From positions 93,631 through 157,630 of the forward strand of contig CAKQLP010000003.1 of assembly GCA_934254675.1 (NCBI GenBank): a stretch of DNA of 64,000 nucleotides, given 5' to 3'. The notes under the pieces are model-generated. The model saw only the letters and a program-made list of their open reading frames with translations. It was not told where the DNA came from and did not search any database. Source of the stretch: an uncultured Alphaproteobacteria bacterium. Its GTDB lineage: Bacteria; Pseudomonadota; Alphaproteobacteria; RF32; CAG-239. Within the stretch, counting starts at the first letter, position 1. Every line of letters starts with the position of its first letter. The position numbers and the translations under genes were made by a program. Positions 49,318 through 50,189 of this stretch are shown here, piece by piece.

Positions 49318-50189
49318 GAGAGCCAATGCATCAAATAATGACAAGAAGTCATTCCATTGCAGACTTTGTTATTTTTGCATAAGTCGGTGATTTGCGCCAC
49401 CCCTAAATCTTTCAGGCAATTTTTTGATGATGCGCCGCAATATTTATCTCCAATAAATTGTTTGTTACCGTTAGATGGATCTTTGTTGGGATCGTTGGTA
49501 TAAATTTGGATGACATCAATCATGTCATGATAATATTGCCCGATTGTGAAAAAAAGGCGGCAAGCTGTGTAATTGTCTTTCTGATTAAAAGAGGCAATGC
49601 CGACATATCCGGTGTTATGGGCGTAAATGTAAAGAGAACTGCCCAAAGCGTCAACCACAGTATAATCTCCATTGACAAGCATTTCTTCAGGTAAGTCGCC
49701 GGTTGCTCTTAAAATGGGAATTAAAGAAAGTTCTCCAACATCACTGCTGTTATTAATATGCAACTGCGGTTCATAGATATTCATTAAATTTATAAGTAAA
49801 CGCCACTGTCCTAAAGCTTTGTTCCAGTGGTACATATCCATGGCTTTGGTGTAGCCGGCAATACCACCAATGCTCAACACCCCGATAATGGCGAGGACGC
49901 CCAGCATTTCAATCATGCTTCTTCCAGAGGAAACCGCGTGTAGCGGCGCATCTAAAGCGGTTTTACGCTGTCTCAAAAAATTCATGTACGTCTTATGTAC
50001 ATTAGGATTTTTCTCGCAGCTAGAAACCACTTTATCTACACCACTCTCCGCGGTTTCAATACATTCCAAGTTCTTGTCATACTCGGGCGTGACCCGAGTA
50101 TCCAAAGAAGAGTGTTCATAATGGATTCTCGGAATAAATTCGAGAATGACGGAGAATAGGGGATTCCGCCCTGACTCAAATTTTTCCAA
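49311..50189 (-). CDS. type IV pilin-like protein, paralog 3. The ORF as drawn runs through the upstream repeat, so the probable true start is the ATG near 49986 (leader MNFLRQRKTALDAPLHAVSSG).
   Basis: Conserved G|RSMIEMLGVLAIIGVLSIGGIAGYTKAM. The C-terminal domain is unrelated to the other paralogs. The 3' end overlaps ruvX by 7 bp. Confidence 0.6.
   Translation of the reverse strand: MEKFESGRNPLFSVILEFIPRIHYEHSSLDTRVTPEYDKNLECIETAESGVDKVVSSCEKNPNVHKTYMNFLRQRKTALDAPLHAVSSGRSMIEMLGVLAIIGVLSIGGIAGYTKAMDMYHWNKALGQWRLLINLMNIYEPQLHINNSSDVGELSLIPILRATGDLPEEMLVNGDYTVVDALGSSLYIYAHNTGYVGIASFNQKDNYTACRLFFTIGQYYHDMIDVIQIYTNDPNKDPSNGNKQFIGDKYCGASSKNCLKDLGVAQITDLCKNNKVCNGMTSCHYLMHWLSH

What the first reader, a model, noticed from the sequence alone, without database searches (positions are those of the whole stretch)
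49925..50189. ORFs stay open through the palindromic modules, and apparent start codons are not conserved (ATG / TTG / TGG)
In all three repeat-preceded paralogs the pilin frame stays open for 89-102 codons upstream of the G|RSM site, straight through the palindromes. These translate to recurring peptides ILGFIPRIH and VTPEYD. Module copy number differs between copies, yet the frame is maintained. At the position of the longest-ORF start, copy A has ATGAAAAAATTTGAG, copy B has TTGGAAAAATTTGAG and copy C has TGGGAAAAATTTGAG. Copy C therefore has no start there, which argues the long extension is not a genuine leader. The behaviour is reminiscent of Rickettsia palindromic elements, which insert in-frame into genes. 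An alternative is a real long prepilin leader that is removed by the peptidase, so insertions in it are tolerated. Automated annotation will likely over-extend these genes.
Basis: seen in the sequence. Interest (0 to 1): 0.6.

Follow-up and report, generated by a model that had tools for sequence, protein, structure and literature searches.

The report
Phase-variable pilin genes with giant leaders
Three pilus-subunit genes of an uncultured gut alphaproteobacterium start much further upstream than they appear to, at a conserved ATG separated from the rest of the gene by a (TC)n repeat that currently puts all three out of frame, so they look like on/off "contingency" genes whose 110-140-codon, palindrome-filled leader really belongs to the reading frame.

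Summary
The observation largely holds. In all three minus-strand paralogs the pilin frame is open through the palindromic modules, 118-142 codons back to the previous stop. One detail is wrong: the codons at the "longest-ORF start" are TTG/TTG/TGG, not ATG/TTG/TGG.

About 100 nt further upstream, each copy has promoter-like hexamers, a Shine-Dalgarno sequence, ATG (MKNKLSKG) and a (TC)7T tract. The tract puts the ATG out of frame, giving a 13-codon mini-ORF, and both wrong frames hit TAA within 3 codons.

- Tracts in related gut metagenome loci are 7-19 nt by DNA, and 25 nt inferred from one protein.
- Alleles of 7, 13 and 19 nt encode one ORF from that ATG through the palindromes into the pilin.
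- Two about 99% identical orthologous loci differ by exactly one TC unit, one ON and one OFF.
- Four alleles of the copy-A locus carry four leader architectures, all in frame.
- Other paralogs reach the same modules from an ordinary SD+ATG with no repeat.

Best reading: slipped-strand phase-variable type IVb-like pilin genes, all OFF here. Their prepilin leaders are exceptionally long and modular, and probably cleaved. This is a new variant of a known kind.

The parts
50306..50335 (-). Copy B: sigma-70-like promoter hexamers (TTGATA-18-CAAAAT), just upstream of the SD/ATG
   Evidence: consensus match only. No promoter-like site on this strand lies between the TC tract and the Gly codon.
50295..50304 (-). 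Copy B: Shine-Dalgarno AAGAGGAAAG, ending 4 nt before the ATG
   Evidence: identical in copy A and in most related loci
50249..50290 (-). Copy B: conserved ATG and the 13-codon mini-ORF MKNKLSKGLSLSL* that results in the OFF phase
50253..50267 (-). Copy B: (TC)7T dinucleotide tract, 15 nt. Removing 1 unit or adding 2 units fuses the ATG to the pilin frame.
   Evidence: tract lengths of 7-19 nt in related loci
49923..50252 (-). Copy B: leader-coding region, 109 codons plus the Gly codon. It has 0 stops in the pilin frame and includes the finding's interval 49925-50189.
   Evidence: As RNA it folds with z = -6.7.
50121..50150 (-). Copy B: palindromic module 1 (GTCATTCTCGAATTTATTCCGAGAATCCAT), read as VILEFIPRIH
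50076..50103 (-). Copy B: palindromic module 2 (GGATACTCGGGTCACGCCCGAGTATGAC), read as DTRVTPEYD. It is the inverted orientation of the module 1 family.
49984..50002 (-). Copy B: hairpin ATGTAC-N7-GTACAT inside the 'B cassette'. It contains the internal ATG of MNFLRQRKTALDAPLHAVSSG, which has no SD.
49311..49922 (-). Copy B: mature pilin, 203 aa plus stop, beginning RSMIEMLGVLAIIG (Glu at +5)
27120..27147 (-). Copy A: promoter-like hexamers (TTAAGA-16-TATAAT). They follow the terminator of the upstream gene at 27179-27203.
27055..27110 (-). Copy A: SD (27101-27110), ATG at 27096, mini-ORF (27055-27096) and (TC)7T tract (27059-27073)
26711..27058 (-). Copy A: leader of 115 codons plus Gly. Module 1 lies at 26927-26956 and 26879-26908; module 2, with a 12-nt in-frame insert, at 26822-26861; the hairpin at 26749-26767.
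   Evidence: Four orthologous alleles have different, in-frame architectures.
26105..26710 (-). Copy A: mature pilin, 201 aa plus stop. It matches PilS_N and Bundlin, and a terminator follows at 26059-26088.
54231..54260 (-). Copy C: promoter-like hexamers with an extended -10 (TG)
54153..54209 (-). Copy C: SD ATAAGGA (54203-54209), ATG at 54194, mini-ORF MKNKLNKGLSLSL* (54153-54194) and (TC)7T tract (54157-54171)
53749..54156 (-). Copy C: leader of 135 codons plus Gly. Module 1 lies at 54016-54045 and 53968-53997; module 2 at 53920-53947 and 53878-53905; the hairpin at 53796-53813.
53059..53748 (-). Copy C: mature pilin, 229 aa plus stop
3539..4261 (+). Paralog D, for comparison. It has no TC tract and no palindromes: GGGAG + ATG, then a 34-aa leader MLNCKK...NDNAG|RSMLEM.

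Best explanation
The three loci are intact type IVb-like (bundlin/PilS/TcpA-type) major-pilin paralogs of an uncultured gut alphaproteobacterium. Their translation starts at a conserved SD+ATG (MKNKLSKG).

A (TC)n dinucleotide tract follows the eighth codon. Slipped-strand mispairing at this tract changes the unit number and so switches each gene ON or OFF independently.

With 15 nt, as in all three window copies, the ribosome stops after 13 codons (OFF). With 13, 19 or 7 nt, one ORF runs from the ATG through a 110-220-codon leader into the prepilin-peptidase site G|RSMIE and the mature pilin (ON).

The leader is a mosaic of in-frame DNA units: 28-48-nt palindromic modules, plus about 100-nt 'cassettes' that each end in Gly. 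It has no confident predicted fold.

**Shown**
- The anatomy of the loci.
- ON and OFF alleles that differ by TC units.
- Frame maintenance across structural variants of the leader.
- A type IVb pilin fold for the mature part.

**Inferred**
- Reversible high-frequency switching within a lineage.
- The leader stays cytoplasmic and is cut off by the prepilin peptidase. This would explain why only its reading frame, not its sequence, has to be kept, and why repeat units accumulate there.
- In the OFF phase the untranslated, strongly folded, SD-less leader RNA keeps the pilin silent.
For: 1. **Conserved upstream start in all three copies.** Each has SD + ATG + (TC)7T. The pilin frame opens 4 codons after the ATG. 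Both non-pilin frames meet TAA within 3 codons of the tract, inside GTAAATCCTAA.
2. **Promoter position.** Promoter-like hexamers lie just upstream of this ATG. None lies between the tract and the Gly codon, and there are no terminators there.
3. **Tract-length polymorphism by DNA.** Lengths of 7, 9, 11, 13, 15, 17 and 19 nt were seen. Lengths 7, 13 and 19 give full-length ORFs of 315-424 aa from the ATG; 9, 11, 15 and 17 give 11-16-aa stubs.
4. **ON/OFF pair at one locus.** L016 (19 nt, ON) and L017 (17 nt, OFF) are about 99% identical orthologous loci from two samples. They differ by one TC unit.
5. **Second ON/OFF pair.** P0127 (ON) and P0126/L041 (OFF) belong to one 90% cluster.
6. **ON-type proteins in the database.** Twenty proteins start MKN[KE].. 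followed by 0-4 LS units. They include repeat-less 'locked-ON' forms (MKNEQSKGLNPKHS, MKNKLSKGFSENPKHS).
7. **Frame maintenance.** All 12 non-redundant TC-type loci have 0 stops over 118-239 codons, against 4-17 stops in the other frames. Shuffles reach 0 stops in at most 0.5% of trials. Four alleles of the copy-A locus have 115-, 124-, 134- and 169-codon leaders, all in frame.
8. **Ordinary starts read the same modules.** MYKF- and MNLK-type paralogs enter the modules from GGAG/GGGAG + ATG. Each was shown in 10 places from different assemblies, and the index lists them on more than 20 contigs.
9. **Internal starts look non-functional.** In-frame internal starts lack an SD, and the copy-B ATG sits in a hairpin.
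10. **The mature part is a type IVb pilin.** PilS_N scores 3e-11 and Bundlin 3.8e-10; BfpA 1zwt scores 4.9e-8. An AF2 model of an ON homologue has pLDDT 83-97 over most of the mature part and 35-65 in the leader. The top PDB folds are TcpA, PilS and CofA.
11. **Precedent.** In H. pylori oipA, CT repeats in the signal-peptide coding region switch the gene by slipped-strand mispairing.
Against: 1. **OFF predominates.** In the unbiased DNA sample, 15 of 15 loci are OFF and 15 nt dominates (9 of 15). Four independent assemblies of the copy-A locus all have 15 nt, even though their leaders differ. A freely hypermutable tract might be expected to vary more. The pattern also fits an OFF-favoured 13<->15 toggle, or homogenisation by gene conversion.
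2. **Leader length is unprecedented.** Leaders of 110-220 aa are 4-9 times longer than any described class III leader, which range 6-26 aa, or about 15-30 aa for type IVb (PMC4471445). Nothing shows that a prepilin peptidase can process them.
3. **The cassettes resemble ordinary leaders.** Each ends like a normal type IVb leader (e.g. MNFLRQRKTALDAPLHAVSSG|R), so some internal initiation cannot be excluded.
4. **One orphan leader stays open.** An orphan TC-type leader with no pilin attached keeps a 161-codon ORF (L029). Part of the frame openness may therefore be inherited with the modules rather than selected at each locus.
5. **No direct data.** There are no read-level, transcript or protein data. 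No pilus machinery or prepilin peptidase was seen among the genes examined in the window.
Confidence: 0.75

Rival explanations
1. The region is a long structured 5' UTR with a regulatory upstream mini-ORF. The pilin is always translated from an internal start near the Gly, giving an ordinary 15-21-aa type IVb leader. Candidates are ATG-MNFLRQRK... in B, GTG-RKAQAV... in C and GTG-YKRGTR... in A. The MKNKLSKG(LS)n peptide and the palindromes only modulate transcription or translation.
For: - Each cassette ends like a classical basic type IVb leader, and gene callers sometimes choose these starts.
- Known leaders are at most about 30 aa.
- 15 nt (mini-ORF state) is the commonest tract length.
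- The leader RNA is strongly structured (z = -6.7).
Against: - The internal starts have no SD. The copy-B ATG is inside a hairpin, copy C has only GTG, and copy A has only GTG or a 4-aa MQCG leader.
- This model gives no reason for the pilin frame in particular to stay open for 118-239 codons through many indel variants.
- It gives no reason for in-frame 7/13/19-nt alleles and repeat-less in-frame alleles to exist.
- Cassettes occur stacked, so that a 'leader' is followed by another cassette rather than by the pilin (P0001, P0013).
- A caller-chosen MNFLRQRK start (P0126) turned out to be an OFF TC-type allele with an open upstream frame.
Confidence: 0.12
2. The out-of-frame 15-nt state is itself the functional state. 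A programmed +2/-1 ribosomal slip, or RNA-polymerase slippage, on the (UC)n run produces the fused prepilin at a set low efficiency.
For: - 15 nt predominates and is invariant in four strains at locus A.
- A tRNA reading UCU or CUC can re-pair perfectly 2 nt downstream within the run, and the 0-frame stop UAA follows the tract directly (inference from the sequence).
Against: - There is no canonical X XXY YYZ slippery heptamer.
- The second OFF class (11/17 nt) would need a different shift, yet it is common (6 of 15 loci).
- In-frame alleles of 7, 13, 19 and 25 nt exist, as do locked in-frame alleles.
- +2 slippage and dinucleotide transcriptional slippage are rare in known systems (own knowledge).
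Confidence: 0.05
3. The palindromes are selfish MITE/RPE/REP-like elements that happened to insert in frame. The frameshifted genes are decaying pseudogenes.
For: - The units are palindromic, occur in both orientations and vary in copy number.
- An orphan leader without a pilin exists.
- All three window copies are frameshifted.
- The unit resembles a palindrome family I recall from other proteobacteria (GTCAT-stem-loop-stem-ATCCA). This is memory and was not tested.
Against: - No unit was found in an unrelated gene, in the 64-kb window plus about 350 kb of related loci.
- Apart from the tract, the ORFs are intact for 310-380 codons in every allele examined.
- The same 'frameshift' sits in a simple repeat that is in frame in other alleles.
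- The mature N-terminus is invariant across the 39 sequences aligned.
- A selfish origin of the modules is compatible with the main explanation; pseudogene status is not.
Confidence: 0.05

Closest known systems
Helicobacter pylori outer-membrane protein genes (oipA/hopH, also sabA, babA) switched by CT dinucleotide repeats
   Same: A CT/TC dinucleotide tract lies in the 5' coding region that encodes the cleaved signal sequence. Unit-number changes by slipped-strand mispairing shift the frame between ON and OFF, and the tract is read as Leu-Ser repeats (PMC10564699).
   Different: Here the gene is a type IV pilin with a class III signal, not a Sec-type signal. The tract is followed by a 110-220-codon leader rather than by the end of a short signal peptide. 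The organism is an uncultured gut alphaproteobacterium.
Neisseria opa gene family (CTCTT pentamer repeats in the leader-peptide coding region; about 11 scattered, independently switching paralogs)
   Same: It is a multi-copy family of surface-protein genes scattered around the chromosome. Each copy has its own promoter and its own coding-region repeat in the leader, and most copies are OFF at any time (own knowledge; family described in PMC3745409, abstract seen).
   Different: The repeat is a pentamer, not a dinucleotide. The products are outer-membrane adhesins, not pilins. There are no palindromic modules.
Type IVb pilins (BfpA bundlin, S. Typhi PilS, TcpA, CofA)
   Same: The mature part matches the Bundlin and PilS_N profiles and BfpA by sequence. 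Gly is at -1, Glu at +5, and the N-terminal helix is hydrophobic. The predicted fold is closest to TcpA, PilS and CofA. The first mature residue is not Phe, and the leader is longer than in type IVa.
   Different: The leader is 110-220 aa, against 13-30 aa. The genes are solitary among housekeeping genes, not in a pilus operon. Very many paralogs exist: more than 7,400 database proteins matched, which is a capped count.
Rickettsia palindromic elements (RPEs) and other intragenic MITEs
   Same: Palindromic repeat DNA is carried in frame inside protein-coding genes and read as recurring peptides (PMC10969869).
   Different: RPEs are about 150 bp and are found in many unrelated genes. The units here are 28-48 nt, occur in arrays, and in the sequence examined are confined to pilin loci.

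Membership tests
Simple-sequence-repeat contingency locus (slipped-strand phase variation) | Simple repeat tract inside the 5' coding region, between the start codon and the body of the ORF | tested here: met
   A (TC)7T tract begins at codon 9 after a conserved SD+ATG in all three copies.
Simple-sequence-repeat contingency locus (slipped-strand phase variation) | Tract length differs by whole units between closely related strains at the same locus, changing the frame | tested here: met
   L016 (19 nt, ON) and L017 (17 nt, OFF) are about 99% identical. P0127 and P0126 form a second pair. However, four alleles of the copy-A locus all have 15 nt.
Simple-sequence-repeat contingency locus (slipped-strand phase variation) | The ORF is otherwise intact in OFF alleles, so the switch is reversible rather than decay | tested here: met
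   There are 0 stops from the tract to the natural stop in every TC-type allele examined.
Simple-sequence-repeat contingency locus (slipped-strand phase variation) | High-frequency reversible switching within a clonal population | not testable with these tools
   This needs read-level or culture data. Only consensus assemblies were available.
Type IV pilin (class III signal peptide), type IVb subgroup | Gly at -1, Glu at +5, and about 20 hydrophobic residues forming the N-terminal helix | tested here: met
   G|RSMIEMLGVLAIIGVLS[IV]GGIAGY is present in A, B and C. The motif is invariant in the 39 sequences aligned.
Type IV pilin (class III signal peptide), type IVb subgroup | Sequence or fold similarity of the globular domain to type IVb pilins | tested here: met
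   Copy A is above the Pfam cut-offs for PilS_N and Bundlin; copies B and C are below them. BfpA scores 4.9e-8. The AF2 model of homologue P0029 is closest to TcpA, PilS and CofA.
Type IV pilin (class III signal peptide), type IVb subgroup | Short hydrophilic leader (6-26 aa overall; about 15-30 aa in type IVb) | tested here: not met
   The leader would be 122-148 aa in the window copies if ON (less the 202-230 residues that one search counts from the cleavage-site Gly), and 113-221 aa in ON homologues. The known range is taken from PMC4471445.
Type IV pilin (class III signal peptide), type IVb subgroup | Cognate prepilin peptidase and assembly machinery | tested here: inconclusive
   None was found among the ten ORFs of 33-45 kb scanned, nor among the genes flanking related loci. 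The rest of the genome was not available.
Rickettsia palindromic elements / intragenic MITEs | Element of about 100-150 bp dispersed in many unrelated genes and intergenic regions | tested here: not met
   The units are 28-48 nt. In the 64-kb window and about 350 kb of related loci, all true copies lie at pilin loci: pilin 5' regions, an orphan leader, or contig ends.
Rickettsia palindromic elements / intragenic MITEs | Carried in frame within an ORF and read as a conserved peptide | tested here: met
   The units read as VILGFIPRIH and DTRVTPEYD in the pilin frame. Unit lengths are multiples of 3: 48, 42 and 12 nt.
Programmed -1 ribosomal frameshift site | X XXY YYZ slippery heptamer | tested here: not met
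   No such heptamer is present in AAAGG(TC)7TGTAAATCC (read directly).

The most novel reading that the evidence does not exclude
A prevalent but uncultured lineage of human-gut Alphaproteobacteria may run a large combinatorial repertoire of type IVb pilins. Each gene would be gated either by a (TC)n switch or by an undescribed riboswitch-like RNA.

The switched genes would carry a new kind of prepilin pro-region of 100-240 aa, built from palindromic DNA units. These units would be functional rather than junk. As RNA hairpins they could enforce a tight OFF state and require translation from the far ATG. They could also act as recombination substrates that shuffle leader cassettes between paralogs.
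Probability: 0.3. Interest if true: 0.8.

Novelty: new variant of a known kind. Interest (0 to 1): 0.62.

Why it matters
- **Pilin biology.** If correct, this extends the known range of prepilin leader lengths several-fold.
- **Gut microbiology.** It points to a classical pathogen-style contingency mechanism acting on pili in an uncultured commensal gut lineage. The family matched more than 7,400 database proteins, almost all from metagenomes and unnamed.
- **Annotation.** Gene callers systematically mis-start these genes, at internal TTG/ATG codons or even at MIEMLG. ON/OFF state can instead be read directly from the tract length (7/13/19/25 nt = ON). Pilus phase could therefore be scored in existing gut metagenomes.
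- **Testable questions.** Can a prepilin peptidase process a 100-200-aa leader? Do the repeat hairpins in the leader RNA enforce the OFF state?

Tried and rejected
- **Rfam.** The window at gathering thresholds gave only tRNA-Asp. Nothing matched the leaders or the paralog-D upstream element.
- **Genome collection scan.** The conserved 28-mer found only 4 loci, 3 of them from one alphaproteobacterial MAG.
- **Metagenome scan.** It found 8 loci, most cut at contig ends at or near the shared 5' cassette. The unbiased census is therefore small, at 15 loci.
- **Signals inside the leader.** I looked for promoters and terminators between the tract and the Gly codon and found none on the coding strand.
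- **Pilus machinery.** I looked in the 33-45 kb gene cluster. It holds BatA-D-like, TsaE, MlaE/F and RadA genes.
- **pN/pS.** The first 27 leader codons give 0.38, against 0.29 for the first 36 mature codons. This is not discriminating. The clear difference is total divergence: pS is 0.15 in the leader and 0.52 in the mature part. That points to homogenisation of the 5' cassette or a nucleotide-level constraint on it.
- **Literature.** Searches for the module peptides, and for phase-variable type IVb pilins in gut bacteria, returned nothing specific.
- **Shufflon-like DNA inversion.** Considered and dropped. The inverted module pairs are only about 20 nt apart, and no recombinase gene was seen among the ORFs examined.
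- **SD pairing with the (UC)n tract.** This appears in the MFE fold. It was not pursued because the helix is weak.
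Full report
**1. What is at the coordinates**

The finding (49925-50189) is the 5' part of a minus-strand ORF, 49311-50189. Six-frame searching finds three paralogs on the minus strand with the site G|RSMIEMLGVLAIIG. The Gly codons are at 26713 (A), 49925 (B) and 53751 (C). 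A fourth, repeat-less paralog lies at 3539-4261 on the plus strand (D).

Upstream of the Gly the pilin frame is open for 124, 118 and 142 codons to the previous stop. It is open for 95, 89 and 102 codons from the first possible start codon.

The frame passes through two kinds of palindromic unit:
- GTCATTCTCGGATTTATTCCGAGAATCCAT, read as VILGFIPRIH.
- GGATACTCGGGTCACGCCCGAGTATGAC, read as DTRVTPEYD.

Read on the opposite strand, the second unit has the same GTCAT-stem-loop-stem-ATCC layout as the first, so the two are opposite orientations of one family. Module 1 / module 2 counts are 2+1 in A, 1+1 in B and 2+2 in C.

From the TC tract to the Gly the pilin frame has no stop, while the other forward frames have 5-11. 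Only 0.06-0.46% of dinucleotide-preserving shuffles are stop-free.

At the "longest-ORF start", copy A has TTG AAA AAA TTT GAG, not ATG. The series is TTG / TTG / TGG.

**2.

The open frame does not end at that TTG/TGG. It continues about 100 nt further, through a perfect (TC)7T tract at 27059-27073, 50253-50267 and 54157-54171.

Immediately 5' of the tract every copy has AAGAGGAAAG (ATAAGGA in C), a 4-8-nt spacer, and ATG AAA AAT AAG CT. .. AAA GG, which encodes MKNKLSKG. That ATG is in a different frame from the pilin. It gives MKNKLSKGLSLSL followed by a stop.

The sequence after the tract, GTAAATCCTAA, has TAA in both non-pilin frames and is open in the pilin frame. Removing one TC unit or adding two fuses the ATG to the pilin frame, giving ORFs of 325-379 codons.

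Promoter-like hexamers lie just upstream of each SD. In copy A they follow directly after the terminator of the neighbouring gene. No promoter-like or terminator-like site on the coding strand lies between the tract and the Gly codon.

The in-frame internal start codons nearer the Gly have no Shine-Dalgarno sequence. The only ATG candidate, in copy B, is inside an ATGTAC-N7-GTACAT hairpin.

**3. Comparative evidence**

A search with the hypothetical in-frame protein of copy A returned more than 7,400 related proteins. Almost all are from gut metagenomes and none carries a name.

Among 184 sequences retrieved:
- 20 begin MKN[KE].. followed by 0, 1, 2, 3 or 4 Leu-Ser units and then VNPKHSISERFKAST. 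Two kinds lack the repeat altogether (MKNEQSKGLNPKHS, MKNKLSKGFSENPKHS).
- 50 are the same genes called from internal codons (MEKFES.., MKKFES.., MISERF..).

DNA confirms the link between tract length and frame:

| Locus | Tract length | State |
|---|---|---|
| L003 | 7 nt | full-length ORF from the ATG |
| L001 | 13 nt | full-length ORF from the ATG |
| L002, L016 | 19 nt | full-length ORF from the ATG |
| other loci | 9, 11, 15 or 17 nt | terminate after 11-16 codons |

The most direct case is L016 against L017. They come from two samples and are about 99% identical over about 1.5 kb including the flanks. They differ by exactly one TC unit (19 nt ON, 17 nt OFF) and by a 12-nt in-frame indel inside a palindrome.

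A second pair is P0127 (ON) and P0126 (OFF). The P0126 locus, L041, shows that the caller's start at MNFLRQRK is an artefact of the OFF phase.

The organism is an uncultured gut alphaproteobacterium. Supporting records are the MAG "Alphaproteobacteria bacterium CM_BacRUG1152.10" and Hadza/Nepal and other gut assemblies.

**4. Is the long leader really read?**

- All 12 non-redundant TC-type loci with DNA keep the pilin frame stop-free for 118-239 codons. The other two frames carry 4-17 stops.
- At the copy-A locus, four assemblies share identical flanks, promoter, SD, ATG and a 15-nt tract. They have four different leader architectures (115, 124, 134 and 169 codons), all in frame. One has two 'cassettes' stacked in tandem.
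- Other paralogs have no TC tract but an ordinary GGAG or GGGAG + ATG start (MYKFKKNF.., MNLKSFEN..). This start runs directly into the same palindromic modules, giving 99-156-aa leaders. Each type was seen in 10 places from different assemblies.
- Short-leader paralogs also exist, for example MYKNFENG|RSM, MKIKQNQLG|RSM and MNKLKHSQCG|RSM. The shared MYKNF.. N-terminus suggests that the long leaders arose by insertion of repeat DNA into a short leader-coding sequence (inference).
- An AlphaFold2 model of an ON homologue (P0029) gives pLDDT 35-65 for residues 1-155. Over most of the mature part it gives 83-97: a long N-terminal helix plus a beta-sheet domain.

One caveat applies. An orphan TC-type leader with no pilin attached still has a 161-codon ORF (L029). 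Some of the openness may therefore be inherited with the modules, whose lengths are multiples of three, rather than selected at each locus.

**5. What the protein is**

Copy A is above the Pfam cut-offs for PilS_N and Bundlin, and it matches BfpA (1zwt, 4.9e-8). The model's best PDB matches are TcpA, S. Typhi PilS and CofA. This is a type IVb-like pilin with Gly at -1 and Glu at +5.

According to PMC4471445:
- Class III leaders are 6-26 aa, or about 15-30 aa in type IVb.
- They stay in the cytoplasm.
- They are removed on the cytoplasmic side.

A leader of 113-221 aa is therefore far outside the described range. It is topologically tolerable, however, and free to vary if it is discarded (inference).

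**6. Mechanism proposed**

Each gene is an independent contingency locus. Slipped-strand mispairing at (TC)n toggles the frame, mainly between 13 nt (ON, the commonest ON length) and 15 nt (OFF, the commonest length overall). All three window copies are OFF.

In the OFF phase, translation stops after 13 codons. The remaining 330-410 nt before the Gly codon are untranslated, lack an SD and fold strongly (z = -6.7 for copy B). This would keep the pilin silent (inference).

In the ON phase, a precursor with a long, probably disordered cytoplasmic leader is made and cut at G|R (inference).

The closest precedents are the CT-repeat switches in the signal-sequence coding regions of H. pylori oipA, sabA and babA and, by my own knowledge, the multi-copy Neisseria opa family.

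**7. Weak points and rivals**

In the unbiased DNA sample, 15 of 15 loci are OFF. Locus A has 15 nt in four assemblies. This fits selection for OFF, or homogenisation of the 5' cassette. The cassette is much less diverged than the mature part (pS 0.15 against 0.52). The same pattern is also what a 'functional 15-nt state' would look like.

Three rivals remain:
- **Internal initiation from the cassette starts.** It has no SD support and does not explain frame maintenance, in-frame alleles or stacked cassettes.
- **Programmed +2/-1 slippage on (UC)n.** It has no canonical site and does not explain the common 11/17-nt class.
- **Pseudogenes with selfish palindromes.** This is contradicted by the intact ORFs and the in-frame alleles.

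The RPE comparison holds only for 'palindromic DNA carried in frame'. The units are 28-48 nt, not about 150 bp. In the window and about 350 kb of related sequence, none lies in an unrelated gene.

**8. Verdict**

- The preferred interpretation is not supported; the stated alternative is.
- The main new point is the upstream SD-ATG-(TC)n switch.
- Novelty: a new variant of a known kind, namely a coding-repeat contingency locus applied to a type IVb-like pilin family with exceptionally long modular leaders.
- Nothing specific was found in the literature searches.

Noticed in passing
window 3322-3510 (+); also L015 826-1014 (-), L018 18883-19080, L028 9777-9970, L029 16136-16330: A conserved structured RNA of about 190 nt ends in an intrinsic terminator just before the SD/ATG of pilin paralogs that lack the TC tract. 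RNAalifold on 5 copies predicts 66 pairs, 19 of them with compensatory double changes. There is no Rfam match. It is a candidate new riboswitch or attenuator controlling pilin genes.
   Followed up: partly
L018 about 9740-9975 (same region in L019-L027): A different upstream element precedes the MYKF-type pilin paralog. It ends in a terminator-like hairpin plus a T-run, directly before GGAG+ATG. Compensatory-looking differences appear in L020 and L024.
   Followed up: no
L029 about 15400-16010 (-), also L028 19149-19655 and L031: An orphan TC-type leader: SD, ATG, a 17-nt tract and many palindromic modules, with a 161-codon ORF and no pilin attached. It runs into the 3' end of a convergent short-leader pilin gene and breaks off right after '...PENDHNNL'. 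It is probably a rearrangement remnant.
   Followed up: partly
window 26749-26767, 49984-50002, 53796-53813: Each leader 'cassette' carries a 6-bp inverted repeat about 55-80 nt before the Gly codon. It is GTGTAC-N6/7-GTACAC in A and C, and ATGTAC-N7-GTACAT in B, a change on both arms. It could be an RNA hairpin or a protein-binding palindrome.
   Followed up: no
window 40348-40354: A G7 homopolymer lies about 57 nt into the SNase-domain ORF 40291-41274, in a 37% GC genome. It may be another slippage-prone tract.
   Followed up: no
window 34561-34676: An 18-nt tandem repeat (GCGCAAAAAGAAGCTGTC, 6.4 copies, 90% matches) sits inside the M23-peptidase ORF 33043-35043.
   Followed up: no
window 50200-50217 and 49931-49948: In copy B the 13-mer CTACACGCGGTTT occurs both at the start of the leader (FKASTRGF) and just before the Gly (PLHAVSSG). 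The MFE fold pairs the two regions through their CGCG cores, closing the whole leader into one long-range domain.
   Followed up: no
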